This document shows positions 5,897-28,468 of a stretch of 32,000 nt of DNA, piece after piece. Position 1 is the first letter of the stretch, and every line of letters begins with the position of its first letter. The translations under genes were made by a program, and so were the position numbers. The notes under the pieces were generated by a model. The model was not told the DNA's origin. It worked only from the letters and a program-made list of their open reading frames with translations, and ran no database searches. This DNA is from Pseudoalteromonas tetraodonis. GTDB lineage: Bacteria > Pseudomonadota > Gammaproteobacteria > Enterobacterales > Alteromonadaceae. The stretch lies in NCBI RefSeq assembly GCF_002310835.1, contig NZ_CP011041.1, positions 1,410,001 through 1,442,000 on the forward strand, in the 5' to 3' direction.

Positions 5897-6223
5897 ATGC
5901 AAGAGCTATTAGTTGATATAGATGACCTTGACGAACTATATCGCTGCTACATGCCTTTTTTAAAAAAAGGGGGGCTATTTGTACGCACCAATATGCGTTA
6001 TGAGCCTGGGTATTCACTCGCTTTACGAGTAACCTTACCTGATGCCTTAGAAGACGATGTGGTCACCGGCAAAGTTACGTGGATCACTCCGCAAGGTGCA
6101 CAAAGTTCAAACCCTCCGGGGATCGGCATCAGCTTTTTAGATGATAAAACAAACCTAAACGCGAAGATCGAAAAACTGCTGGGGACTATGTTAAACTCCG
6201 GCAATCCAACTTATACCATGTAG
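5897..6223 (+). CDS. pilZ: PilZ-domain protein (type IV pilus assembly PilZ-like)
   Basis: 108 aa with YMPFLKKGGLFV...GKVTWITPQG...PGIGISF. The holB-pilZ-tatD arrangement matches that known from Pseudomonas. Confidence 0.75.
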   Translation: MQELLVDIDDLDELYRCYMPFLKKGGLFVRTNMRYEPGYSLALRVTLPDALEDDVVTGKVTWITPQGAQSSNPPGIGISFLDDKTNLNAKIEKLLGTMLNSGNPTYTM

Positions 6224-9062: not shown

Positions 9063-9522
9063 CTAAAAGAGCAGCGTCTCTTAACCCTCTTTGTGCATAC
9101 TTTTCTTAAAGATCTTATTGAACTGAGAGAAGAGAATGAGGAGTAAATGAGAAGATAAAACAAGTGTTAGGGATTAGGCCCGCAGCCCGATAACTTTCGA
9201 CTTTAACCTCTAAAAGCGCAGCGTCTCTTAGCTCTCTTTGTGCATACTTTTCTTAAAGATCTAATTGAACTAAGAGAAGGGAATGAGGAACAAATGAGAA
9301 GGCCAAAAAGATGTTAGGATACAGCTCGTGACTCGCTCCCCGCAGCCCGTTAACTTTCGACTTTAACCTCCAAAAGCGCAGCGTCTCTTAGCCCTCTTTG
9401 TGCATACTTTTCTTAAAGATCTAATTGAACTAAGAGAAGGGAATGAGGAACAAATGAGAAGGCCAAAAAGATGTTAGGATACAGCTCGTAACCCGCTCCC
9501 CGCAACCCGTTAACTTTCACTT
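9063..9522. repeat. tandem array of three 147-160-nt units
   Basis: Unit starts (C[T/C]AAAAG[A/C]GCAGCGTCTCTTA...) are at 9063, 9210 and 9370. Units 2 and 3 differ by about 5 substitutions in my manual alignment. Unit 1 is more diverged and 13 nt shorter. Unit 3 runs across the stop codon (9510-9512) of the minus-strand Wzy_C gene. Confidence 0.9.
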
Positions 9523-10847
9523 CGCCGTTTTTTAATCCGTTTTGGTGCTGGCAACTTATTGGTTAATAAAGCTAAACATAACACCACGATAAACAACATC
9601 GAATTAGCCCCCGCCTGCAGCGAATAATCAACCGACGAATGCAGCATCATTGCCACAATAGCTGTAGCACAACCAAACGCCACACCCTGATAAAGGGCCG
9701 TTTTGCGCGTTCGCATAGTATTAATACATAACCATAAACAATAAACCACTAACAGCCCCAATAACGCCGTTGCAGGAATACCCAGCTCAACTGCAAATTG
9801 CACATAATCGTTGTGCGCATTGTCGTAATAACCAGAGTAGGGCTCAGACTGATACGCAGGAAACGCAGTATAAAAAGTACCGCCGCCCGAGCCTAATAAC
9901 GGGTTATCTAAAATCAGCGGGATTGAGTCGCGTACAACTTCATCGCGAGTTTCCGATTGTAAACTGGTTTCGCTAATACGTTGTTTTACCTTTTCTACAT
10001 CGAAAATGGCACCAATGATGATTAAATCGATAATGAAAAAGCTGACAATCAGCAATTTAAATGCTTTAGGCTTTTGCTTATAAACAAACAGCGCCAGTAA
10101 GCTCACTATAATTAAGGCGATAAAAAAAGCCGAATTACCCATGCGACTACGGGTTAAAATAAGTGCCACAATTATAATAATTAGCGATATACGCAAAATT
10201 ATTTTAGAGCTTAATATAATCTCAGCCCAAGCACGTAAGGTTTGTTTTAAAGTAGGCTTGTAGCCGTTGTTAGTGCGTTTTAGTTCGCTAATTAAAACAC
10301 CAATGCCTAAGCATAAACACAGCGCTAAATAGTTAGCTAAAAAGTTAGAATAGGTAAAAGTACCAATAGCTCTGTCGGTGTGTTTGTAGCCAAATAAAGG
10401 GCTAACAATATCGGGCGATAAGTTTAAGTAACTAGCATACAAAGCCTGAAAAACACCGGCGCAAATGACGGCGTAAATTAATTTTTTAATACGATTTACA
10501 TTATTACAGTAATTAAATATTAACCAGCTCAACATTATTAAAAAACTGGTTTTTAATAACATTTGTTTTGTTTGAAAAGCATCAACACTTACGCCAAATA
10601 ACTGGACCCCGCACACCAAAGCAACAATGCCTAAGGCAGTAAATAATGGCCAAGTATATCGAGGAGGGAAAAGTGCTTGGTGGTTATTTAAAACACTGTT
10701 TGCCAAGTGAGTAATAAAGGTAAAGCTAGTTAAAATACCAATAGCTAAAATTGCCCAAGGCCTGTAACTACCTAAAGGAAGGGGAAGCAAAAAAAGGATC
10801 AGACAAATAAGAAAAAATATAAAACGATTCAAAATAAACTCAAACAA
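9510..10847 (-). CDS. Wzy_C-family membrane protein (O-antigen ligase WaaL-like or PglL-like O-oligosaccharyltransferase)
   Basis: 445 aa with many hydrophobic segments. It has N-terminal LPLPLGSYRPWA, a large loop with the motif YDNAHNDYVQFAVELGI typical of Wzy_C, and a basic C-terminus. The start is uncertain: only TTG codons are available, at 10847 or 10832. Confidence 0.75.
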   Translation of the reverse strand: MFEFILNRFIFFLICLILFLLPLPLGSYRPWAILAIGILTSFTFITHLANSVLNNHQALFPPRYTWPLFTALGIVALVCGVQLFGVSVDAFQTKQMLLKTSFLIMLSWLIFNYCNNVNRIKKLIYAVICAGVFQALYASYLNLSPDIVSPLFGYKHTDRAIGTFTYSNFLANYLALCLCLGIGVLISELKRTNNGYKPTLKQTLRAWAEIILSSKIILRISLIIIIVALILTRSRMGNSAFFIALIIVSLLALFVYKQKPKAFKLLIVSFFIIDLIIIGAIFDVEKVKQRISETSLQSETRDEVVRDSIPLILDNPLLGSGGGTFYTAFPAYQSEPYSGYYDNAHNDYVQFAVELGIPATALLGLLVVYCLWLCINTMRTRKTALYQGVAFGCATAIVAMMLHSSVDYSLQAGANSMLFIVVLCLALLTNKLPAPKRIKKRRSES

Positions 10848-10876
10848 AGTAAAAACGCAGCCAATTGGCTGCGTTT
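10848..10876 (-). terminator. rho-independent terminator after the 181-aa gene
   Basis: On the minus strand a perfect 10-bp stem, AAACGCAGCC - AATT - GGCTGCGTTT (10853-10876), is followed by TTTTTACTTTG. The T-tract abuts the TTG start of the next gene. Confidence 0.75.
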
Positions 10877-10896: not shown

Positions 10897-11442
10897 CTAG
10901 TTACCGACTTCAGATATACCGTTATCACCGCCTGTACCACCAGAACCTGGAGGTGTTGGTAATGTTGGTAAGCTGCCTACTGGCGGAGCAGGCTGACCCG
11001 CACCAGGACCTGCAGCAGTTGCTTCAGAAGCGGTTGTTGCATCAACACCTGCGGTAATTGCTGCTAGGGTAATTGCATCAGTATCTAAACCAGCATCCGA
11101 AAGAGCAGCTAAAAAGTCAGAAATTAATGGATTGTCTGCACCAAAACGTGCCACAACAGCAGCAACCATTGCATCTATATCAGCAGCGCCACAAGCGCCA
11201 TTAAGCAGTTTTTCGTCTAGCTTGATTTTTTCTTTATTTTTACAAATACGTTTAATCGCTTCTACTAAATCTTCGCGTAATTGCTCTGGCGTAGTATCTG
11301 CTGTTACGTTATTAAGAATATCAATAATGCTATTTATGCTCACTTCTTGAACCACAGCATTATTATCCGTTTGTGCATAGGTTGGCAAAGCAGTTAGAGC
11401 AGACGCACTAGCTACTAAGCCAGCTAAAATTAATTTTTTCAT
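10897..11442 (-). CDS. small secreted protein of unknown function with a low-complexity Ala/Pro/Ser/Thr/Gly tail
   Basis: Sec signal MKKLILAGLVASASALTALPTYA/QT, with AGGGA about 8 nt upstream of the ATG. It has two Cys residues (RICKNK...NGACG). The tail is DATTASEATAAGPGAGQPAPPVGSLPTLPTPPGSGGTGG. Confidence 0.75.
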   Translation of the reverse strand: MKKLILAGLVASASALTALPTYAQTDNNAVVQEVSINSIIDILNNVTADTTPEQLREDLVEAIKRICKNKEKIKLDEKLLNGACGAADIDAMVAAVVARFGADNPLISDFLAALSDAGLDTDAITLAAITAGVDATTASEATAAGPGAGQPAPPVGSLPTLPTPPGSGGTGGDNGISEVGN

Positions 11443-11463
11443 TTCTCGTCCCTTGGTTGAGTA

Positions 11464-13470
11464 CTAATTGCAAAATTTTAGCGCATCGGTGCAAAAAGTA
11501 AACTCTTTATTTACGCCATTTTCATTAGATTTAATAATTTTTGATGGTGGCAGTATTAAATTACCTTGTACCCCATCACATCCTAGGTATTCAAGTATTT
11601 CTAAAGTCTCGGTTTTTTCAATTAAACAGGCTAAAACTTTAATACCAAAGCCATGACAAATATTATTAACTGTTTGAATATAAAATTGACTTTGCGGGTT
11701 AGTTACCAAATCTTGAATGTAACTACCATCAATTTTAACGTACTCAATATCAAGACCTTGTAAATACCTAAACGACGTTAAGCTAGTACCAAAGTGCTCA
11801 ATACACACATTAATACCCAGCTCTTTAATTGCATCTATATGTAAAGACGCAACATGCACGTTATAAAGCAAACCAATTTCATGTAGTTCAAACACTAAGT
11901 TTGTTTTAATTACCGGTTTAGTGTGCGAGTAAAGGGTAAGCCATTGTATAAAGTCGGCTGAATACAATGATGCTTTACTAATATTCAACGCAAACACATC
12001 ATTAGGGTAGTGCTCTTTTACATCTACAAAGCTACGTATAATTTTTTTATCGAGTTCTTCGGTTAAATTTAATTTTTCAGCCATCGCAAATAAGTGACCA
12101 TTATTTACCTTTTCACCTTCATGAATAAAGTGTGCAAATACCTCAAAGTAACACTGAGAATCAGTTTTATTAGCTTGTTTAACAGGTTGCACCGAAAAAC
12201 TCACTTCGCCAGCATTTATAATCGACTTAATTAAGGTACGCCATTGGTTAACACTAAATAATGACTCTTTATCGTTTTTATCAAACGTAGTGTCTTCACC
12301 TATAGTGCAACCAGTATCAAGTAGCGATAACACTTCACCTAAACTCGCTCCTTGCTCAACGCCAACAATCGCTAAATTAGCGTAACCGTTTATATGTAAG
12401 CTGTTTTCTTTTTGACTTAAATTATCAATGAGGTCTAAGCGGGCTTTATTTAAAAATAAAACGTCATATGGGGCCAGTAATACAAACGTACCCCCGTTAA
12501 GCCTAAATATGGTTGAATTTGGTAACTCATCGGCGACATGCTTAAGTATTTTAGCGGCATCAAGTACATGCTGATCACCATCTTGGTAGCTTACCACTTG
12601 GTTAATATTATTTAACGAGGGTAGGGTAAGCATCATCGCAGTAATTGGCGTATCGTCAGTAATATTATTTACAACAGAATTAAAGTGGTTTTCAAACGAC
12701 TTACGGTTACCCAACCCCGTTAACGAATCTATGTATACTTCTTCAGTAAGCGCTTGTGTTTGTTTGGTCAGCGAATCAAACGTACTTTGTAAGTTTATAA
12801 CCATGTTATTTATGGCTTGGGTTACAGTGCGAAGCTCCCGTGCTACTGGTATTTCTTTATTTAAGGTAAAGCGTTTTCGAGTAACTAAAGTGGCTTGATC
12901 TTCTACTGCTTTTAACGGCTTAAATACTGCGCGTAAAATTAAAAATGCAATAGCCAGTGATGCTGCTAATAGCAAAAATGAGCTATATAAGCTGCGGAGT
13001 GTGTGTTGCCATAAGGTAAGGTAAGATTGCCCAGTATGGCTGGTTACATCAAGTGTGCCTGCCATCATCCAACCATTGTTTATTTCAGAGTGCATAGTGG
13101 GCGCACTCAGTTCAACAGCACTAATAAACCAACCAGGAACAGATTCAACGCGTTTAGGGTTTTGTAACTCAAACACTATATTATTTTGCACATCAGTAAA
13201 TTTAATTTGGCTGTAATAACCAGAGTCAAAAATAGCGGTTGCCATCGTTTCGGCAATTACTAGGCTATCGTCTTCTAAATAAGGAGATATAGAAAGCCCT
13301 AAACTGGTAGCGGTGTCTTGCGCATGGCTGGCCATTTGCGTTTGTAAATAATTACGGGTTGTATCCACATCGGTAATAACGCGTACACAAAATGAAATAA
13401 CCGAAATTAATATGATCAAGCCATATACTTGAGTTTTTAAACTCAATCCATATTTAAATATTCGAGACAT
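11464..13470 (-). CDS. lapD: LapD-like inner-membrane c-di-GMP receptor (TM - periplasmic domain - TM - HAMP - degenerate GGDEF - degenerate EAL)
   Basis: Preferred start is MSRIFKYGL (ATG 13470, AAGGA 10 nt upstream), followed by a TM helix. The periplasmic segment contains PGWF. A second TM helix and a HAMP-like segment follow. The GGDEF site reads RLNGGTF. EAL-domain motifs are degenerate: EVF for EAL and IEHFGT for DDFGTG. Confidence 0.8.
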   Translation of the reverse strand: MSRIFKYGLSLKTQVYGLIILISVISFCVRVITDVDTTRNYLQTQMASHAQDTATSLGLSISPYLEDDSLVIAETMATAIFDSGYYSQIKFTDVQNNIVFELQNPKRVESVPGWFISAVELSAPTMHSEINNGWMMAGTLDVTSHTGQSYLTLWQHTLRSLYSSFLLLAASLAIAFLILRAVFKPLKAVEDQATLVTRKRFTLNKEIPVARELRTVTQAINNMVINLQSTFDSLTKQTQALTEEVYIDSLTGLGNRKSFENHFNSVVNNITDDTPITAMMLTLPSLNNINQVVSYQDGDQHVLDAAKILKHVADELPNSTIFRLNGGTFVLLAPYDVLFLNKARLDLIDNLSQKENSLHINGYANLAIVGVEQGASLGEVLSLLDTGCTIGEDTTFDKNDKESLFSVNQWRTLIKSIINAGEVSFSVQPVKQANKTDSQCYFEVFAHFIHEGEKVNNGHLFAMAEKLNLTEELDKKIIRSFVDVKEHYPNDVFALNISKASLYSADFIQWLTLYSHTKPVIKTNLVFELHEIGLLYNVHVASLHIDAIKELGINVCIEHFGTSLTSFRYLQGLDIEYVKIDGSYIQDLVTNPQSQFYIQTVNNICHGFGIKVLACLIEKTETLEILEYLGCDGVQGNLILPPSKIIKSNENGVNKEFTFCTDALKFCN

Positions 13471-14161
13471 AACTACTAGTTCCTTTATTGTTACTGGCGG
13501 CGGAGGCAAGCTCACCTTGTTCAATTCGTTCAAGCATAGTGTTCCAAGCAGAAACGCCACGACTATTTTTAACCTTATTACCTAACCCTTTCGATTTGGC
13601 TAACCATAAACCTTGGCCATTAAAACTGTATATAGGTTTTAAATCGCCCCGATTGCTTGCAGGCACTAATTTTGTATTAAAGTTATCAAGCACCAACGGT
13701 ATTTGGTTTGGTTGTTCAAAGTATATAAGCACCATGTGTGGTTGATTAACCGTACGCTGGCGTACATACATAAAGCGTATTTTATCTTCGGGGATACCTA
13801 AAGCGATTAAAGTAAAATATTTAGCAATAACATAATCTTCACAGTCACCCATGCCGACACCTAGGCTTTCTAGAGGGGTGGCCCAGTAATCTTTTTTTTG
13901 CCAAAGTTCGTCATCGGTTTTGTACTTTATATGCTTGTTAAAAAAATCATTAACTAAATGAATTTTTTGCCATTCGCTCTTATCGGCAGAGTCATCTATA
14001 AAACTCAGCCACGTTTTTATACGTTGGTGGCCTGCATCGCCGTAAAACTGTTTGGCACGGCTTATTATATCGCTATTTCGCAGATGCAAAAGCATGTCTT
14101 GTGCACAAGCAAAAAAAGACACTAATATAATGATGCAAATTCCAACGCGCACAAAGCCCAT
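13454..14161 (-). CDS. lapG: LapG-like periplasmic transglutaminase-like cysteine protease (BTLCP family)
   Basis: Preferred start is MGFVRVGICIIILVSFFACA/QD (signal peptide, ATG 14161). It has the catalytic-Cys motif GMGDCEDYVIAKY, later PHMVL (His) and VLDN (Asp). The stop at 13454 overlaps the lapD-like start by 17 nt. Confidence 0.8.
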   Translation of the reverse strand: MGFVRVGICIIILVSFFACAQDMLLHLRNSDIISRAKQFYGDAGHQRIKTWLSFIDDSADKSEWQKIHLVNDFFNKHIKYKTDDELWQKKDYWATPLESLGVGMGDCEDYVIAKYFTLIALGIPEDKIRFMYVRQRTVNQPHMVLIYFEQPNQIPLVLDNFNTKLVPASNRGDLKPIYSFNGQGLWLAKSKGLGNKVKNSRGVSAWNTMLERIEQGELASAASNNKGTSSYVSNI

Positions 14162-20706: not shown

Positions 20707-21900
20707 ATGTTTAAAAGGTTAACGGTTTTGATAAGCACAGGTTTACCTGGGTTAATCAGACTTCTAGTTTTTTTAGTAGTTGAGACAGAATACAACTTGA
20801 TTGACTTTGGTCACTTCGCTAGTGATTTATCGTTAGTTCAATTGATTTCATTTTTTACAGCTATAAGCTGGGCTGCCTTGGTGATGACAACAGTAACGCA
20901 ATCGGAGCAACCTGAAAGAGCTTTGTTTAAAGTTATGAATACTGGTGTTGTATATCTTTTGCTATTTTGCTTAATCCCTTTTGTGTTGTATAAATTGGAT
21001 ATAATAAAAGATTCTTTAGGGACAATCTGTTTTATTGTTGGATGGATGTTTTATCAAATATCAAGACACTACATCATTACAAAAAAAGAATTTACACGGA
21101 TAATAATATTTGACTCATTAAATTTATTGTTATTTATTATTGTTTTATTTTTAGGTGTTACTCCACTAATAGCGCTAACTTTATCACATCTAACCTTTGT
21201 AGTTTTTAATTTACCTAAACTTAAACACTATAGTTTAAGCTTAGTGACAATTGAACAACAGCTAAATGGTCTTAAAAATGGCCTAAGTACATTTTTACTT
21301 GGATTAGGTGTTTATAGCCTCCCTGTGATTTTTGGGCTTGTTTTAGGTGCTGAATATTCAGTGCTAATGGGGTTATCCACATCTTTGCTAATTATGATTC
21401 AATTAGTTCCTCGCTCTATTAGTGCATATTTTCTTCCAACTATCTCTAAAACATTACTGTCTGATAAGACGTTTGCGTTAAAAATGCATCGACAACAAGT
21501 ATTTTATACAATTATATCGACTGCTTTATTATCTGCGTTAGGGATTATTTTTGTATATTTTGTTTATAAATTAGCCATTTTTGAGGTTGTATTAATTGAT
21601 GGAGCTTTGAGTTTAATTTTCCTCCTTTTGTTTAATATTGTCATTACAGTTTTGGCATTTCCCTTTAGTGATCTACTGATGTCACATGGCAATTTTAAAG
21701 TCAATTTAACAGGTAGCTTTATTTACTCACTGGTAGTTACTGCTGCGCTTATTTTATTTTTAATTTATGGAGACAATACTTTACATGCAACACTGCTAAT
21801 GGTTGCATACTCGTTTTCTGGCTGTATGCGTTTTTTATATGTATTTCATAATGCTAGAAAGCTTCTATTCATAGGGAAAAGTGAGTTACTAAATGCTTGA
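20707..21900 (+). CDS. polytopic membrane protein, probable Wzx-type repeat-unit flippase
   Basis: About 397 aa and almost entirely hydrophobic helices. It lies just upstream of, and overlaps, the Wzy-like gene in a glycan locus. I recognised no diagnostic motif by eye. Confidence 0.45.
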   Translation: MFKRLTVLISTGLPGLIRLLVFLVVETEYNLIDFGHFASDLSLVQLISFFTAISWAALVMTTVTQSEQPERALFKVMNTGVVYLLLFCLIPFVLYKLDIIKDSLGTICFIVGWMFYQISRHYIITKKEFTRIIIFDSLNLLLFIIVLFLGVTPLIALTLSHLTFVVFNLPKLKHYSLSLVTIEQQLNGLKNGLSTFLLGLGVYSLPVIFGLVLGAEYSVLMGLSTSLLIMIQLVPRSISAYFLPTISKTLLSDKTFALKMHRQQVFYTIISTALLSALGIIFVYFVYKLAIFEVVLIDGALSLIFLLLFNIVITVLAFPFSDLLMSHGNFKVNLTGSFIYSLVVTAALILFLIYGDNTLHATLLMVAYSFSGCMRFLYVFHNARKLLFIGKSELLNA

Positions 21901-23128
21901 TATAAAAAACTTTAAAGCTAAAATTTTCCTTGTATTCTTAATAACACTTACATTATTACCTAATTTAATTAGGGATATGAAAGTACTTTTGGTTTTCTTT
22001 TTCTTAGCATTAGTATTAGCTTTCGAATTGATCCGGAAAGGCTTTCCAAAAAATAACTCTTTGATATATCTTTTTTTATTTTCTAGTCTGTGTTTGATCT
22101 ATGCGCTCTTCTCTTGGTTTTTTGGAAACTGGACTTATTTATACGAATTTGATCACCGCTATGTATTTCGGCAGGCTTACTTTGCTGTGATGGCACCTAT
22201 TTTTTTACTTGCTACTATCCAGATTTCAAAAGGCCTTGGTACAGACTTTTACAACTTTATAGCTAAAAACAGTATGAAATTGTTATTGGTTATATTTATG
22301 TTGGATATTATAACAGCCTTTCTTTTTGGCGATCCCCGCTTTTATTTTTATAACAATTACACATATCATCTTGATAAAGGATTTATTTGGCTTTTTGTCG
22401 CATTTTTAAGCTTTCATAGTATTTTTTGTACGAATAATGCCTCGGGTGTTACTTTGGTTGTTATATTAGGATTTGTTGCGCAAAATGTTGTTGGTTATGG
22501 AACTATGTTTACTGCAGCTACTGGACAAACTGTATTTGTTTTAATATTACTTAACTACTTCGTTTTACAGTTAACTAAAAAAGTTAAACTTTGCTATTTA
22601 ATGAACTTATCCGCTTTAGTCGCAGTAATTCTTTTTGTTTTAATTACTCCGTTTTTTTCTGATCTATTTATAAATGATTTAAATACTTATTGGCGACTTG
22701 AATCTTGGTATAAAAATATTTCTGCAGTGGCGTCAAATTTAGGTTTTGGCAGTGGCTTTGGAGTTTCATACTTTCCAATAACTCATGATGTAGTAGATGA
22801 AGCATACAAGGCTTATAGTCCAGAAGCTACCGGTGGTGGATTGTTAGATCAACTTTTTGTTCGAGGTCAGCACTCATCTATCATTAATGTGTTGTTTCGA
22901 ACTGGTGTTTTAGGCTTACTACTATTTCTTTGTTTTATTGGTAGTGCAATGTTTAACCTCAGGAAATATATGAATAGTAGGATAACATTTGCTGTACCTG
23001 TTGCAATATGCGCCGTGTTTAATGTTGCAACACATGTTGGATTAGAATCGCCACCTTTCATGATTAGCTTTTCGATAGCTTTCGGTTACCTAGTTAGCGT
23101 AAGTTGGAGTCGTAATAAGTATTTTTAA
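21893..23128 (+). CDS. polytopic membrane protein, probable Wzy-type polymerase (Wzy_C-like)
   Basis: 411 aa with many TM segments. It has a periplasmic-loop motif RGQHSSIINVLFRTGVLGLLLF that resembles the Wzy_C His motif. It overlaps the upstream gene by 8 nt. Confidence 0.55.
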   Translation: MLDIKNFKAKIFLVFLITLTLLPNLIRDMKVLLVFFFLALVLAFELIRKGFPKNNSLIYLFLFSSLCLIYALFSWFFGNWTYLYEFDHRYVFRQAYFAVMAPIFLLATIQISKGLGTDFYNFIAKNSMKLLLVIFMLDIITAFLFGDPRFYFYNNYTYHLDKGFIWLFVAFLSFHSIFCTNNASGVTLVVILGFVAQNVVGYGTMFTAATGQTVFVLILLNYFVLQLTKKVKLCYLMNLSALVAVILFVLITPFFSDLFINDLNTYWRLESWYKNISAVASNLGFGSGFGVSYFPITHDVVDEAYKAYSPEATGGGLLDQLFVRGQHSSIINVLFRTGVLGLLLFLCFIGSAMFNLRKYMNSRITFAVPVAICAVFNVATHVGLESPPFMISFSIAFGYLVSVSWSRNKYF

Positions 23129-25989: not shown

Positions 25990-26266
25990 AAATGTGAGTA
26001 TTAACTAAAAATTAACATTTTGCAGTCCTTTATGGTGTTTTTTTTGTTTTTTTAAATTTTTTTTTATTAAAACGAACTGTAAGTCATTGATATAAAGTTT
26101 TTACTCTTTTTTAGGTACAATAAATTAGTACTTTCGTAGTGTTTTTTGTTCCTTTTGATTTTATTTGTGTATATAATGTTCACCAATTATTCGATGAATT
26201 AACTTTCATTAAACAAATGACTTAAATTTGGTGCCATCATGCACTTTTTCATTTTCGAGGGATAAA

Positions 26267-28468
26267 ATGACTAACTCACTATTAAAATTTAAAAAATTGA
26301 GTGCAGTGATCGCACTTACGCTAGCCAGTTCTACAACACTGGCTGCAGATTTAGGCGTTGCCAATGATTTTTCTGCATTTGTTTTTAATGATTTTAAATC
26401 GAATTTTGGCCGAGCTGATGGCGCTATTGCAGCAGGTGAAATTGATCTTAAAGGTTACAGCGTAGGTTACACCCGCCCATACAGCCCAGAAGAATATTAC
26501 CTAATTAGTGAATCTACCATTGCCTTTAAATATGGTCGCCAATATGTAGGTAGCATGATCGCTGGTGGCGGTACTGATATTCACTGGGGTGTACGTTGGG
26601 GTATGGAGTGGGGTTCTAAAATCCTTTCTAATCAAAATGAATCGGCCATGCCATTTAACTTTGATGAACAAGAAGAGTATTACAAAAATTTAAGCGCCGA
26701 GTTAAACCAGTTAAGCCAAACAGGTACAGTTTACCGTAAATGGGGTGGCCTTTACTTACAAGGTGATGGCAGTTCTGATAGACAAGTATTTAATTTAGAT
26801 GCTCGTGATTTTGCCAAAGCGCACACATTTAAAGTGTGGGGTATACCTGCTGATGCCACAGTAATTTTTAATATTACAGGTGATGACAATGTAGTTGTAA
26901 AAGGCAAGAGTTTTGCCCGTTTACGCCACCATGCAAGTAAAACAGTATTTAACTTTACTAATGCTCAAAAGCTAGACATTAAGGGCAACCGCTGGGAAGG
27001 CGTTGTATTAGCACCATATGCCGATATTAGAGGTGTATATGGTACAGCTAAAATGCCTATTATCGGCCAAAGCTTTTACGGTTCAATGGCGCTATTAGGT
27101 GGTGAATTTGATGGTGATTTACCATCAGTGGCACAGCCAATTTCCCCATTTGCAATCGAGCAAAAGTGGCACTGGAATTCAAGTGATTTCATGCCTGATT
27201 ATAACCAAGTTATGGCGACTCCTGTTGTTGTTCAATTAAATGATGATAACGGTGATAGCGTTATTGATAACAACGATGTGGCAGATGTGGTTGTTGTTTC
27301 TTACAAAGGAAAAGACTTATCTAATGGTATTTTAAGAGCGTTAAGCGGAATTGATGGCACTGAACTTTGGAGTTATGATGCTGGCCAGGTTGTTGATGCT
27401 AGGCATACTCCTGCTGCTGCTGATTTAGATGGAGATGGCCTGGTCGAGATAATAGTTTCTAATAAATTGGATGATTTTATAACTATTGTTGACAATAAAG
27501 GCGTTACTAAAAAGCAAATGTTAAAAGCAAGTTCAAAATGGGAAGGTACTGGGAATATTGCAATTGCGGATATTGATAGTGATGGTATTCCTGAGTTTAT
27601 GCTAGGAGACAGTGTATATAATTATAACTCTGGTGTTATATTTACCTACGGTTGGTCTGCTTCTCCAATTGCGTTTGACTCTAATAACGATGGTGTCCAA
27701 GAGGTTTTTGGTAAAGGCGAGTTAATTGATAAAGACGGAACAGTATTGTGGTCTTATTTGGGTGATGATTTAAGCTGGTTCTCATCCATAGCTGATATTG
27801 ATAATGATAGCCAGCCCGAGGTCATTCTTTCTATACCTTCAACTTCTGGCAAAAGTAGTATTGTTGTGCTAGAGCAAAATGGTAATGTTAAATGGCAAGT
27901 AAACAATCCGGCTAACCCTGGAGGCGGTGCTCAAGCTATTTCAAATTTCTTAGGCGCTGATGATTTGGGTATAGTTTACTCTGGTTTTAGCTCGATAGAT
28001 ATGTACAGCCCAGCTGGTGATATCGTTTGGACAGTAACTAACGATGACAAATGGAGCGGGAAAATGGGCGTTAGCGCGTACGACTTTAATGGCGATGGCA
28101 TTGATGAAGTAATAGTACAAGATCACTTTAAAGTAAGAGTACTAAATGGCCTTAATGGTGAGGTACTATCGACTGTTGCAAACTCTACTGCAACACTTTG
28201 GGAGTACCCAATTGTTGTTGATCTTGAGGGTGATAATAATGCAGAGCTGATTGTGGTTTCAAACAATTCTGATAGCAATTATATTATAAATAATGGTGTT
28301 ACTGTATATGGTACTGCCGATACCAGTAAGCCTTGGAAAAATGCTACCCGCATTTGGAACCAGCACTCTTACCACCAAACTAATATTAATCAAGATGGAA
28401 CTGTACCAACTGTGGAGTCACCAAGCTGGTTAAATAACAATACTTACCGCTCTAGTACACTTAAATAA
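26267..28468 (+). CDS. secreted protein with an N-terminal choice-of-anchor-A-like domain and a C-terminal FG-GAP/VCBS beta-propeller
   Basis: The ATG at 26267 follows GAGGG. Signal peptide is MTNSLLKFKKLSAVIALTLASSTTLA/AD. The N-domain has FSAFVFNDFKSN..ADGAIAAGEIDLKGYSVG and VFNFTNA...GVVLAPYADI. At least six Ca-binding-like repeats follow (DLDGDGLVEIIV, ADIDSDGIPEF, FDSNNDGVQEV, ADIDNDSQPEV, YDFNGDGIDEV, VDLEGDNNAEL). Confidence 0.8.
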   Translation: MTNSLLKFKKLSAVIALTLASSTTLAADLGVANDFSAFVFNDFKSNFGRADGAIAAGEIDLKGYSVGYTRPYSPEEYYLISESTIAFKYGRQYVGSMIAGGGTDIHWGVRWGMEWGSKILSNQNESAMPFNFDEQEEYYKNLSAELNQLSQTGTVYRKWGGLYLQGDGSSDRQVFNLDARDFAKAHTFKVWGIPADATVIFNITGDDNVVVKGKSFARLRHHASKTVFNFTNAQKLDIKGNRWEGVVLAPYADIRGVYGTAKMPIIGQSFYGSMALLGGEFDGDLPSVAQPISPFAIEQKWHWNSSDFMPDYNQVMATPVVVQLNDDNGDSVIDNNDVADVVVVSYKGKDLSNGILRALSGIDGTELWSYDAGQVVDARHTPAAADLDGDGLVEIIVSNKLDDFITIVDNKGVTKKQMLKASSKWEGTGNIAIADIDSDGIPEFMLGDSVYNYNSGVIFTYGWSASPIAFDSNNDGVQEVFGKGELIDKDGTVLWSYLGDDLSWFSSIADIDNDSQPEVILSIPSTSGKSSIVVLEQNGNVKWQVNNPANPGGGAQAISNFLGADDLGIVYSGFSSIDMYSPAGDIVWTVTNDDKWSGKMGVSAYDFNGDGIDEVIVQDHFKVRVLNGLNGEVLSTVANSTATLWEYPIVVDLEGDNNAELIVVSNNSDSNYIINNGVTVYGTADTSKPWKNATRIWNQHSYHQTNINQDGTVPTVESPSWLNNNTYRSSTLK

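What the first reader, a model, noticed from the sequence alone, without database searches (positions are those of the whole stretch)
10897..14161. lapG-lapD c-di-GMP proteolysis switch whose operon continues into a small Sec-secreted protein carrying a TAAG motif
Seen in sequence:
- Three minus-strand genes are tightly packed. The LapG-like stop (13454) overlaps the LapD-like start (13470) by 17 nt.
- The LapD-like stop (11464) lies 21 nt from the ATG of a 181-aa gene (11442), which has its own AGGGA ribosome-binding site.
- The only strong terminator (10848-10876) follows that third gene.
- The 181-aa product has a Sec signal peptide and the tetrapeptide T-A-A-G (nt 11008-11019, about 40 residues from its C-terminus).

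Established knowledge: in the Pseudomonas fluorescens Lap system, LapD binds c-di-GMP and sequesters the periplasmic protease LapG. LapG otherwise cleaves the giant T1SS adhesin LapA at a di-alanine site with consensus [T/A/P]-A-A-[G/V].

Inference: no giant RTX adhesin or T1SS gene lies in the window. The co-transcribed small protein may therefore be a non-canonical LapG substrate or an accessory partner. A 4-residue match inside an Ala/Gly-rich region could also be chance.
Basis: partly seen in the sequence, partly recalled or inferred. Interest (0 to 1): 0.75.

Follow-up and report, generated by a model that had tools for sequence, protein, structure and literature searches.

The report
Small secreted LapG substrate in lapGD operon
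A marine bacterium's c-di-GMP-controlled protease switch (LapG/LapD) is followed in the same operon by a small exported protein carrying a copy of the protease's full recognition site from giant adhesins, which points to a new and easily testable kind of target for this biofilm switch.

Summary

- **Genes.** lapG (13454-14161), lapD (11464-13470) and a 181-aa Sec-signal gene, here "X" (10897-11442), are packed on the minus strand. A strong terminator follows X.
- **The motif alone is weak.** TAAG or its consensus occurs by chance with P = 0.04-0.23.
- **The extended match is strong.** X residues 128-149 match real Pseudomonas LapA retention modules (15 of 19 identical). This covers the end of the targeting helix, D-[A/P], the same spacing, TAAG-P and then a poly-Gly-(I/H)S motif.
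  - hhalign gives probability 91-95% and E = 1e-6 to 6e-8.
  - X scores 24.6 bits against a maximum of 12.3 bits in 6400 shuffles.
  - 17 of 37 family members hit NCBIfam retention_LapA.
- **Fold.** The rest of X is an unrelated helical bundle.
- **Gene context.** X homologues occur in Pseudoalteromonas, Colwellia, Rheinheimera and related uncultured genomes. In all but two of 65 loci, both cut short upstream, X lies next to LapG and/or LapD. It usually precedes an O-antigen-ligase-family gene.

Best reading: X is a periplasmic LapG substrate, a third substrate class after type I-secreted (T1SS) adhesins and CdrA. Cleavage, its output, and whether a LapA-like adhesin lies elsewhere in the genome are all untested.

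The parts
13454..14161 (-). lapG: periplasmic Ca-dependent cysteine protease of the BTLCP / Peptidase_C93 family. The start may instead be GTG 14152, and the ORF is open up to 14245.
   Evidence: Pfam PF06035, E = 6.9e-18. NCBIfam CystProtLapG, E = 7.8e-66, 221 bits, below the 320-bit equivalog cut-off. Matches PDB 4u65_E at 1.5e-49 and 4fgo_A at 5.5e-46. GDCEDY, HMVL and VLDN align with the Ca-site and the Cys-His-Asp triad.
11464..13470 (-). lapD: inner-membrane c-di-GMP receptor with LapD_MoxY_N periplasmic domain, HAMP, degenerate GGDEF (NGGTF) and EAL domains.
   Evidence: Pfam hits. NCBIfam LapD, E = 4.2e-103, 346 bits, below the 1020-bit cut-off. PDB matches 3pjw, 4u64 and 3pjv. The periplasmic loop reads NNGWMMAG: Trp is kept, but the Q of GWxQ is M.
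10897..11442 (-). X: a 181-aa Sec-exported protein, the candidate LapG substrate. Public records call it 'hypothetical', 'signal peptide protein' or 'orphan protein'.
   Evidence: ORF and signal peptide. No Pfam or NCBIfam family at E <= 0.001. Family found with 76, 113 and 57 hits in three searches. AF2 model: helical bundle at residues 30-143 (pLDDT 70-88) and a disordered tail at 146-181. No fold match in the PDB.
11374..11442 (-). Signal peptide of X, residues 1-23, with predicted cleavage after T-Y-A.
   Evidence: Read directly from the sequence. The n-, h- and c-regions are conserved in alignment A1. The cleavage site is inferred.
11005..11082 (-). LapG-recognition module of X, residues 121-146: helix DAITLAAITAG, then V-D134-A-TTASEA, then T142-A-A-G145-P. 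The predicted scissile bond is A143|A144.
   Evidence: ATAAG is invariant. hhalign against real LapA-like retention modules: probability 91-95%, E = 1e-6 to 5.6e-8. 17 of 37 members hit NF033682. Shuffle control: 24.6 bits against a maximum of 12.3. Published LapG site rule: PMC13090378 sections 7-8 and bioRxiv 10.1101/198937.
11008..11019 (-). T-A-A-G tetrapeptide, residues 142-145.
10900..10950 (-). Conserved C-terminal tail motif G-S-G-G-T-G-G-D-N-G-I-S-E-V-G-N (poly-Gly then I-S), residues 165-181.
   Evidence: G166, G168, G169, G171, G172, D173, G175, I176, S177 and E178 are invariant. With the broad profile this stretch aligns to LapA 'GGGGALGGGHS'. Kept as GGGGGG-[IV]S-x-N-x in most distant relatives, and as a modified form (GGGTGxGDxxLASGx) in the Rheinheimera type.
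11449..11454 (-). Ribosome-binding site AAGGGA, 6 nt before the ATG of X.
   Evidence: Read from the sequence.
10843..10876 (-). Intrinsic-terminator-like hairpin AAACGCAGCC-AATT-GGCTGCGTTT plus a T-run. It lies in the 64-nt gap between X and the next gene.
   Evidence: A hairpin plus T-run is found at the same position in nearly all of the 21 regions checked, including the window. The stem sequences are specific to each genus.
9510..10832 (-). O-antigen-ligase-family (Wzy_C) membrane protein of 440 aa, starting at TTG 10832. It is the conserved fourth gene of the cassette.
   Evidence: Pfam Wzy_C, E = 3.9e-22. The exact sequence equals WP_174818645.1, 'O-antigen ligase family protein'. It lies downstream of X in the great majority of loci. 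Membership in one functional unit is inferred.

Best explanation
**Proposed mechanism**
- lapG, lapD and X form one transcription unit.
- X is exported by Sec and folds in the periplasm into a helical bundle (residues ~30-143) with a flexible 36-residue tail.
- At the bundle-tail junction X displays the same recognition element that LapG uses on giant adhesins: a docking helix, a D-[A/P] turn, six residues, then T-A|A-G-P, followed further on by a poly-Gly-(I/H)S motif.
- At high c-di-GMP, LapD holds LapG at the inner membrane and X stays intact.
- At low c-di-GMP, LapG is free and cuts X between A143 and A144. This separates the helical domain from the conserved C-terminal peptide.
- X would then be a third class of LapG substrate: Sec-exported, small and non-adhesin. 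The known classes are T1SS retention-module adhesins and the two-partner-secreted (TPS) adhesin CdrA.

**What is shown**
- Gene order and domain content.
- Conservation of the site.
- Homology of the site region to LapA retention modules.
- Persistent linkage to LapG and/or LapD.

**What is inferred**
- Export, co-transcription and cleavage.
- The c-di-GMP dependence, which is carried over from P. fluorescens, Legionella and Vibrio LapD/LapG.
- The downstream consequence. It probably concerns the cell surface, because the cassette sits in polysaccharide loci next to an O-antigen-ligase-family gene.
For: **1. Packing**
- 17-nt overlap, 21-nt gap, own ribosome-binding site, and a terminator only after X.
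- A terminator hairpin recurs after X in other genera with different stem sequences.

**2. Site conservation**
- A141-T-A-A-G145 is invariant in 30 homologues down to 45% identity.
- [T/A]AAG is kept in Colwellia, Rheinheimera-type and uncultured relatives.

**3. Extended homology to real LapA-like proteins**
- Bait hits named 'retention module-containing protein' were recovered and aligned.
- AITAGVDATTASEATAAGP in X matches AIAAGVDPTTELEATAAGP in LapA at 15 of 19 positions.
- hhalign: probability 91% and E = 1e-6 (A1 vs A4); probability 94.7% and E = 5.6e-8 (A2 vs A4). The second alignment extends to the poly-Gly-[IH]S motif.
- An HMM of LapA positions 86-127 scores X at 24.6 bits. The maximum over 6400 composition-matched shuffles is 12.3 bits, and 33 of 64 family members beat every shuffle.
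- 17 of 37 members hit NCBIfam NF033682 at the linker positions. The next most frequent family has 3 of 37.

**4. Agreement with the published rule**
- The rule is targeting helix + DP + xxxLxx + [T/A/P]AAG (PMC13090378; bioRxiv 10.1101/198937).
- X has the same spacing from D to TAAG. Some orthologues have D-P.

**5. Structure**
- The site lies at the boundary between the folded domain and the disordered tail, so it should be accessible.

**6. Enzyme and receptor look competent**
- GDCEDY, His and Asp align with solved LapG structures.
- LapD keeps the anchoring Trp and the degenerate GGDEF.

**7. Linkage**
- 65 loci from genomes and metagenomes were examined (some are duplicate records of the same genome or near-identical contigs).
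- lapG-lapD-X-Wzy_C is kept wherever the contig allows.
- It is kept although the outer flanks differ.
- Rearranged variants still pair X with LapG (L031, L032) or with LapD (L033, L034).
Against:
- **Imperfect site.** The window's X has D-A rather than the conserved D-P. It has Ser where LapA has the Leu of 'DPxxxLxx'.
- **Catalytic Asp missing in relatives.** In 23 of 53 related loci (a Pseudoalteromonas subclade, not the window) the LapG catalytic Asp is Gly, yet X keeps TAAG. Either the Asp is dispensable or conservation of the site is not driven by cleavage.
- **Degenerate sites elsewhere.** Some distant members have TASG, TSAY, TAVG, TAAR, TAWG or TAGF but keep the docking helix and the tail. 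That fits binding better than cleavage.
- **Divergent LapD.** LapD here lacks the Q of the 'strictly conserved' GWxQ loop and scores far below the NCBIfam LapD equivalog cut-off.
- **Other substrates not excluded.** A LapA-like adhesin elsewhere in the genome could not be searched for, so X need not be the only or the main substrate.
- **Output unknown.** What cleavage would achieve is not known.
Confidence: 0.6

Rival explanations
1. X is a pseudo-substrate, decoy or buffer rather than an effector. It docks on LapG through the mimicked LapA module, cleaved slowly or not at all. This titrates free LapG and sets the c-di-GMP threshold for releasing a LapA-like adhesin encoded elsewhere. In genomes without LapD it would stand in for LapD.
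For: - X copies the part of LapA that binds LapG.
- Variants with a broken di-alanine keep the helix, D[AP]T and the tail.
- The two LapD-less loci carry exactly such variants, TASG and TSAY.
- The LapG Asp-to-Gly subclade keeps X unchanged.
- Stoichiometric co-expression from one operon would suit a titrator.
Against: - The scissile A-A is invariant in the great majority of members. A pure binder would not need that.
- The conserved C-terminal tail has no role in this model.
- No LapA-like adhesin has been shown in these genomes.
- The LapD-less observation rests on only two loci.
Confidence: 0.2
2. X works mainly with the downstream O-antigen-ligase-family enzyme. Its flexible Pro/Gly-rich tail, with the invariant Ser in G-I-S, would be glycosylated by that enzyme or would regulate it, as pilins are modified by PilO/TfpO-type ligase homologues encoded next to them. 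LapG cleavage at TAAG would then release or inactivate the (glyco)peptide, so that c-di-GMP controls a surface polysaccharide or glycoprotein rather than an adhesin. This can hold together with the best explanation.
For: - Wzy_C follows X in the great majority of loci. This includes loci without LapD (L031, L032) and one where a toxin-antitoxin pair precedes X (L015).
- The gaps are short, 43-83 nt.
- The cassette always lies in or beside polysaccharide gene clusters with a divergent galU.
- A second Wzy_C paralogue in the cluster (21893-23128) could be the polymerase.
- The poly-Gly-[IV]S tail is kept even where TAAG is lost.
- The gene order 'substrate followed by ligase homologue' is recalled from the pilA-tfpO and comP-pglS literature. 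It was not checked here.
Against: - No PglL_A or Wzy_C_2 signature, no NCBIfam family and no PDB relative were found for the enzyme. It may simply be the housekeeping WaaL.
- A terminator separates X from it.
- L033/L034 keep LapD-X without Wzy_C.
- X has no membrane anchor, so the benefit of glycosylating it is unclear.
- There is no direct evidence of glycosylation.
Confidence: 0.15
3. Coincidence. X is an unrelated periplasmic protein that stays beside lapD only through inherited gene order. The TAAG region is an Ala/Gly/Thr-rich low-complexity stretch that resembles LapA by chance.
For: - The tetrapeptide alone is expected by chance (P = 0.04-0.23).
- X is Ala-rich at 17%.
- All carriers are related marine gammaproteobacteria, so shared ancestry explains part of the synteny.
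- Single-sequence hits to NF033682 are weak (E = 0.17 for the window protein).
Against: - Profile-profile E = 1e-6 to 5.6e-8.
- No shuffle among 6400 reaches half the real score.
- 17 of 37 members independently hit the same HMM region.
- The site block is the most conserved part of the protein.
- Linkage survives rearrangements, insertions of toxin-antitoxin genes and loss of LapD.
Confidence: 0.05

Closest known systems
Lap system of Pseudomonas fluorescens (LapD-LapG-LapA/MapA) and its orthologues: Legionella CdgS9/LapG/RtxA, Vibrio cholerae LapD/LapG/FrhA/CraA, Bordetella, Shewanella Bpf
   Same: - A BTLCP protease with Cys-His-Asp triad and Ca-site.
- A LapD-type receptor with LapD_MoxY_N, HAMP, degenerate GGDEF and EAL domains.
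- Overlapping lapG-lapD genes.
- A substrate site made of helix, D-[P/A], six residues, TAAG-P, then poly-Gly-[HI]S. It matches LapA at 15 of 19 positions.
   Different: - The candidate substrate is 181 aa and Sec-exported. Its N-terminal domain is a helical bundle, not a beta-rich plug.
- It has no RTX repeats and no T1SS signal.
- No lapEBC genes are nearby.
- The site lies in the C-terminal third of the protein, not near the N-terminus.
- The LapD loop reads GWx[M/I/L], not GWxQ.
- The cassette sits in polysaccharide loci next to an O-antigen-ligase-family gene.
CdrA/CdrB of Pseudomonas aeruginosa (two-partner-secreted adhesin cleaved by LapG at a C-terminal TAAG)
   Same: - It shows that LapG substrates need not be T1SS proteins and that the site can be C-terminal.
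- Like CdrA, X has conserved cysteines (C67 and C84). In X they are N-terminal of the site.
   Different: - CdrA is a large fibrillar adhesin exported through CdrB.
- X is small, and no gene annotated in the window has a TpsB-type domain.
- The Cys pair of X lies inside the helical bundle, not in a terminal 'hook'.
DvhG/DvhD/DvhA of Desulfovibrio vulgaris
   Same: An example of the same regulatory logic built from diverged parts. The protease recognises a targeting helix plus [T/A/P]AAG.
   Different: - The Dvh receptor is an HD-GYP/dCache protein, and its substrates are still giant T1SS adhesins.
- Here the receptor is LapD-like, and it is the substrate that differs.
Dedicated O-oligosaccharyltransferase and substrate gene pairs (pilA-pilO/tfpO, comP-pglS), recalled from the literature and not checked here
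   Same: A small exported protein with a flexible tail and a conserved Ser near its C-terminus, encoded immediately upstream of a Wzy_C-family membrane enzyme.
   Different: - X is not a pilin: it has no class III signal and no pilin fold.
- No O-OTase-specific domain was detected in the enzyme.
- Glycosylation is purely hypothetical.

Membership tests
LapG (BTLCP, Peptidase_C93) | Peptidase_C93 / transglutaminase-like domain | tested here: met
   PF06035, E = 6.9e-18, 65 bits against a 27-bit cut-off. PDB matches 4u65_E at 1.5e-49 and 4fgo_A at 5.5e-46.
LapG (BTLCP, Peptidase_C93) | Cys-His-Asp catalytic triad with Asp/Glu flanking the Cys for Ca2+ binding | tested here: met
   GDCEDY, HMVL and VLDN align with the same residues of solved LapG proteins. 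Note that 23 of 53 related loci, but not the window, have Gly at the Asp position.
LapG (BTLCP, Peptidase_C93) | NCBIfam equivalog score (NF045674, 320 bits) | tested here: not met
   221 bits, E = 7.8e-66. It is a diverged member, not an equivalog by NCBI's threshold.
LapD (c-di-GMP receptor) | Architecture: TM, LapD_MoxY_N periplasmic domain, TM, HAMP, degenerate GGDEF, EAL | tested here: met
   LapD_MoxY_N 8.8e-43, GGDEF 2e-11 with NGGTF in place of GGDEF, EAL 2.4e-44. HAMP is only 18.9 bits, below its cut-off.
LapD (c-di-GMP receptor) | GWxQ loop of the periplasmic domain, with the Trp that anchors LapG | tested here: inconclusive
   The window has G-W-M-M: Trp is kept and Q is replaced by M. 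Every cassette LapD in which the loop was detected has GWx[M/I/L]AG. The motif is called strictly conserved in PMC4359373.
LapD (c-di-GMP receptor) | NCBIfam equivalog score (NF045673, 1020 bits) | tested here: not met
   346 bits, E = 4.2e-103.
LapD (c-di-GMP receptor) | Binds c-di-GMP at the EAL domain and sequesters LapG | not testable with these tools
   Only sequence similarity to 3pjw and 6pwj is available. The EXLXR position reads E-V-F-A-H.
LapG substrate site | [T/A/P]-A-A-[G/V] di-alanine motif | tested here: met
   T142-A-A-G145, invariant in the genus and nearly so in the wider family.
LapG substrate site | Targeting helix and D-P turn at fixed spacing before the motif ('Helix 1 and DPxxxLxx') | tested here: inconclusive
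   AF2 predicts a helix at 121-130. D134 is invariant and sits at the LapA spacing. The next residue is A in the window and P in some orthologues. The Leu position is Ser.
LapA-like retention-module adhesin (NCBIfam NF033682) | Whole retention module: N-terminal beta-rich plug domain plus linker | tested here: not met
   Only HMM positions 89-116 of 145 match (12 bits against a 50-bit cut-off). The N-terminal part of X is a helical bundle.
LapA-like retention-module adhesin (NCBIfam NF033682) | Giant size, RTX repeats, C-terminal T1SS signal and neighbouring lapEBC | tested here: not met
   X is 181 aa with a Sec signal. No ABC, MFP or TolC gene was found in the window. The rest of the genome was not searched.
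CdrA-type TPS substrate | Large TpsA adhesin with partner TpsB pore and a C-terminal Cys hook | tested here: not met
   X is small. No gene annotated in the window has a TpsB-type domain. Only the shared feature of a non-N-terminal TAAG applies.
O-antigen ligase / O-oligosaccharyltransferase family (Wzy_C) for gene 9510-10832 | Wzy_C domain | tested here: met
   PF04932, E = 3.9e-22.
O-antigen ligase / O-oligosaccharyltransferase family (Wzy_C) for gene 9510-10832 | Signatures separating protein O-OTases (PglL_A, Wzy_C_2) from WaaL | tested here: inconclusive
   No such hit even at E <= 10. No NCBIfam family and no PDB sequence relative. PilO/TfpO-type enzymes also lack these extra domains (from memory).

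The most novel reading that the evidence does not exclude
lapG-(lapD)-X-Wzy_C is a four-gene cassette in which c-di-GMP-gated periplasmic proteolysis controls surface glycan display, not an adhesin.
- X would be a carrier or regulator for the neighbouring O-antigen-ligase-family enzyme. For example, it could be O-glycosylated on the invariant Ser177 of its poly-Gly-I-S tail with the product of the adjoining polysaccharide cluster.
- LapG cleavage at TA|AG would detach that tail from the helical domain.
- This would give the many 'orphan' LapGD systems without LapA-like adhesins a new output.
Probability: 0.15. Interest if true: 0.9.

Novelty: new variant of a known kind. Interest (0 to 1): 0.72.

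Why it matters
**The gap it addresses.** LapD/LapG is the textbook example of inside-out c-di-GMP signalling. All known substrates are giant surface adhesins: T1SS retention-module proteins, plus CdrA. The original survey found lapGD in about 120 genera but LapA-like substrates in only about 50 (bioRxiv 10.1101/198937). What the other systems cut is an open question.

**What this finding offers.** It gives a concrete candidate for one widespread marine group (Pseudoalteromonas, Colwellia, Rheinheimera and relatives). The candidate is a 150-260-aa Sec-exported protein carrying a transplanted LapA recognition module, encoded inside the lapGD operon.

**Why it is testable.** It can be tested in a day with purified proteins. 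If it holds:
- the range of known LapG substrates widens;
- Lap signalling becomes linked to polysaccharide/LPS loci;
- a minimal natural LapG-cleavable cassette becomes available for engineering.

**Annotation.** Public records miss the system. LapD is labelled 'GGDEF/EAL protein' or 'CsrD', and X is labelled 'hypothetical'.

Tried and rejected
- **Tetrapeptide significance.** TAAG alone is not significant (P = 0.04-0.23), so it was dropped as evidence.
- **Fold search.** Foldseek of the AF2 model of X against the PDB found nothing at E <= 0.001. The best sequence-profile PDB hit was to designed helical-repeat proteins. That says X is a helical hairpin repeat and nothing about function.
- **Profile search for giant adhesins.** The X profile searched against 1.84 billion representatives gave no hit to a giant adhesin through the site region. 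The link to LapA appeared only in profile-profile and HMM comparisons.
- **Tool failures.** Protein comparison failed twice, so hhalign was run in Python instead.
- **Complex model.** No complex model exists.
- **Genome scan.** The broad alignment A2 was too diverse to scan genomes. The trimmed alignment A3 was used instead.
- **LapA-like adhesin in these bacteria.** tblastn of a retention module against plasmids found nothing. The literature searches were uninformative, and no supplementary tables of the survey paper were held. The question stays open.
- **Prior descriptions.** No paper was found that links LapG to a small Sec protein or to an O-antigen ligase.
- **Classifying the Wzy_C enzyme as WaaL or O-OTase.** Inconclusive.

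Full report
**Observation**

On the minus strand the window carries three tightly packed genes.
- A LapG-like ORF ends at 13454. Likely starts are ATG 14161 or GTG 14152.
- A LapD-like gene runs 13470..11464. It overlaps lapG by 17 nt.
- After a 21-nt gap with an AAGGGA ribosome-binding site comes a 181-aa ORF, 11442..10897, here called X.

The strongest terminator-like hairpin of the region follows X. It lies at 10876-10853, with a 10-bp stem, 6 G-C pairs and a T-run. Promoter-like sites are no more frequent than in shuffled sequence.

- LapG: Peptidase_C93.
- LapD: LapD_MoxY_N, a weak HAMP, a degenerate GGDEF (NGGTF) and EAL.
- LapG aligns with solved LapG structures at E = 1e-46 to 1e-49. 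The Ca-site/Cys block GDCEDY, the His and the Asp are all in place.
- Both proteins score well below NCBI's equivalog cut-offs, so they are diverged members.
- LapD keeps the LapG-anchoring Trp, but its loop reads GWMM instead of the 'strictly conserved' GWxQ.

X has a classical Sec signal peptide and matches no Pfam or NCBIfam family. T-A-A-G lies at residues 142-145 (nt 11019-11008).

**Is TAAG meaningful?**

Alone it is not. In composition-matched shuffles of X the LapG consensus [TAP]AA[GV] turns up in 23% of cases, and exact TAAG in 4%. The context changes the picture.

- *Conservation.* X belongs to a family first seen only in Pseudoalteromonas (76 hits). In 30 members that are 45-85% identical, the block G-V-D-A-T-x-A-S-E-A-T-A-A-G-P is the most conserved part and A-T-A-A-G is invariant. 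Two cysteines and a C-terminal G-x-G-G-x-G-G-D-x-G-I-S-E motif are also invariant.
- *Published rule.* LapG's optimal site is described as a 'targeting helix', then a conserved D-P, then the [T/A/P]AAG motif (PMC13090378). An earlier paper writes it as 'Helix 1 and DPxxxLxx' (bioRxiv 10.1101/198937). X has a predicted helix at 121-130 and an invariant Asp134 at exactly that spacing. The next residue is Ala in the window and Pro in several orthologues.
- *Real LapA sequences.* To compare properly I used my recollection of the LapA N-terminus only as bait. It returned database proteins up to 98% identical, named 'retention module-containing protein'. Their alignment has the consensus LQQAIAAGxDPTxxLEATAAGPGAGGGxGGAxGGGHSFVML.
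- *Pairwise match.* X reads AITAGVDATTASEATAAGP where LapA reads AIAAGVDPTTELEATAAGP, 15 of 19 identical.
- *Profile-profile comparison.* The genus alignment gives probability 91% and E = 1e-6. The broad family alignment gives 94.7% and E = 5.6e-8. In the second case the alignment runs on to pair X's terminal GGTGG-DNGIS with LapA's GGGGALGGGHS.
- *Composition control.* An HMM of LapA positions 86-127 scores X at 24.6 bits. The best of 6400 shuffles reaches 12.3 bits, and 33 of 64 family members beat every shuffle.
- *Independent check.* 17 of 37 family members hit NCBIfam retention_LapA (best E = 1.6e-4) at the linker positions. No other family is hit by more than three.

So X carries a copy of the C-terminal half of the LapA retention module. 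The rest of X is different: AF2 predicts a helical bundle at residues 30-143 and a disordered tail, with TAAG at the junction. No fold relative was found in the PDB.

**Linkage**

An exhaustive profile search showed that the family is wider than one genus. It consists of small Sec-signal proteins built from helical repeats, ending in ...GVD[AP]T[IVL]AS[EQ]ATAAG, a linker, and GGGGGG-[IV]S-x-N-x.

I examined 65 loci from genomes and metagenomes (some are duplicate records of the same genome or near-identical contigs).
- The order lapG-lapD-X-Wzy_C, with a divergent galU-like gene upstream, is present wherever the contig is long enough.
- It occurs in Pseudoalteromonas, Colwellia, an Alteromonadaceae MAG, Rheinheimera texasensis and unnamed metagenomic relatives.
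- It persists although LapD falls to 33-39% identity.
- It persists although the outer flanks differ, including inserted toxin-antitoxin genes and different downstream genes.

Five loci show other arrangements.
- L031 and L032 have LapG-X-Wzy_C without LapD. Their X sites are degenerate (TASG, TSAY), while the LapG triad is intact.
- L033/L034 have LapD-X without Wzy_C.
- L015 has a toxin-antitoxin pair, then X-Wzy_C. The contig ends 1.4 kb upstream of X, so its Lap genes could not be assessed.
- L030 has X, a porin-like gene, then Wzy_C. Its upstream side is also cut.

X is therefore always beside a Lap gene where this can be judged. It is about equally faithful to the O-antigen-ligase-family gene. 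A terminator-like hairpin follows X in almost every locus, with stems specific to each genus, which argues that the feature is functional.

**Interpretation**

The best-supported reading is that X is exported to the periplasm and is a LapG substrate. It would be cut between A143 and A144 when c-di-GMP is low and LapD releases LapG. That makes it a third substrate class after T1SS adhesins and CdrA.

Gene order, domains, site homology and linkage are shown. Export, co-transcription, cleavage and c-di-GMP dependence are inferred from the studied orthologues.

Several points weigh against a simple substrate model.
- X has D-A rather than D-P, and Ser at the Leu position of the published motif.
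- Some distant members have a broken di-alanine but keep the docking parts.
- A Pseudoalteromonas subclade (23 of 53 loci, not the window) has Gly at the LapG catalytic Asp while X is unchanged.
- The LapD loop is atypical.

These points keep a pseudo-substrate or titrator model alive (about 0.2). The tight linkage to the Wzy_C gene and to polysaccharide clusters suggests the output concerns surface glycans. A more speculative version has the enzyme acting on the conserved Ser-containing tail (about 0.15, and compatible with the main model). Pure coincidence is unlikely (about 0.05).

**What could not be done**
- The rest of the genome could not be searched for a LapA-like adhesin or for lapEBC, so 'no giant adhesin' holds only for the window.
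- No paper in the library describes this protein or links LapG to an O-antigen ligase.
- The exact proteins occur in Pseudoalteromonas tetraodonis and its relatives. There X is annotated 'hypothetical' or 'signal peptide protein', and LapD is annotated generically or as 'CsrD'.

**Verdict**

This is a real and conserved feature. It is a Lap-type c-di-GMP proteolysis switch with a new kind of operon-encoded candidate substrate, so I class it as a new variant of a known kind. Interest is 0.72. A specialist would be surprised by a Sec-exported mini-substrate that copies the LapA site. The finding also makes the question of what orphan LapGD systems cleave directly testable.

Noticed in passing
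window ~13690-13700 (LapG 'VLDNF'); related loci L001, L003-L005, L008, L009, L040, L042-L045, L047-L055, L057-L059: The Asp of the LapG Cys-His-Asp triad is present in the window. It is Gly in 23 of 53 related loci, a Pseudoalteromonas subclade. In those loci the Cys, His and Ca-site are kept, and X still has an invariant TAAG.
   Followed up: partly
window ~13090-13115 (LapD 'NNGWMMAG'); cassette LapDs in L001-L064: The LapD periplasmic loop is GWx[M/I/L]AG in every cassette LapD in which the loop was detected. It is never the GWxQ described as strictly conserved. The anchoring Trp is kept. This may mark a distinct LapD subfamily.
   Followed up: partly
L031 2593-5365; L032 9226-12157: These are LapD-less versions of the cassette (LapG-X-Wzy_C). 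The X di-alanine site is degenerate there (TASG, TSAY). The docking helix, D[AP]T and the poly-Gly-IS tail remain, and the LapG triad is intact.
   Followed up: partly
window 10843-10876; the same position in L001-L032: A terminator-like hairpin plus T-run lies between X and the Wzy_C gene in nearly all of the 21 regions checked, including the window. The stems are unrelated and specific to each genus. The gaps are only 43-83 nt, leaving little room for a separate promoter. It may act as an intra-operon attenuator.
   Followed up: partly
window 9510-10832 and 21893-23128: There are two Wzy_C-family genes. One is conserved and lies next to X (440 aa). The other is a weaker match (E = 8e-8) inside the variable polysaccharide cluster and is probably the polymerase. 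Which of the two is the true O-antigen ligase is unknown.
   Followed up: no
window 26228-28468: A 746-aa protein with a pAdhesive_15 (ice-binding-like adhesive) domain and FG-GAP repeats sits inside the polysaccharide cluster. It has no [TAP]AA[GV] motif.
   Followed up: no
X residues ~85-133 (window 11044-11190); PDB 8v2d_J: The helical repeat unit of the family (G-x-D-S-P-L-I-x-x-I-L-x-A-A-x-x-A-G-V-x-x-D-T-V-T-A-I-A) matches computationally designed helical-repeat proteins at E = 1e-12. It appears to be a natural helix-loop-helix repeat of variable copy number (X proteins of 144-262 aa).
   Followed up: no
proteins P0106 (1574 aa) and P0117 (1334 aa): Two long proteins match the N-terminal helical part of the X profile, 9 and 4 times respectively. 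They do not match the TAAG region. Their nature and gene context are unknown.
   Followed up: no
metagenome scan: 467 metagenomic stretches encode [IVL]AS[EQ]ATAAG, but only 31 were confirmed as X relatives. The other 436 were not examined. They could include further carriers of the LapG-site module.
   Followed up: no
window 5897-6223: A small PilZ-domain gene (108 aa) lies between holB and tatD. The assignment rests on synteny with L001 and L002. It is another c-di-GMP-related gene 5 kb from the cassette, and it is probably the common holB-linked pilZ.
   Followed up: no
public annotations of window 11464-13470 and 10897-11442: LapD is recorded as 'GGDEF/EAL domain-containing protein', 'diguanylate phosphodiesterase' or even 'RNase E specificity factor CsrD'. 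X is recorded as 'hypothetical', 'signal peptide' or 'orphan' protein. Current annotation therefore does not show the Lap system in these genomes.
   Followed up: yes
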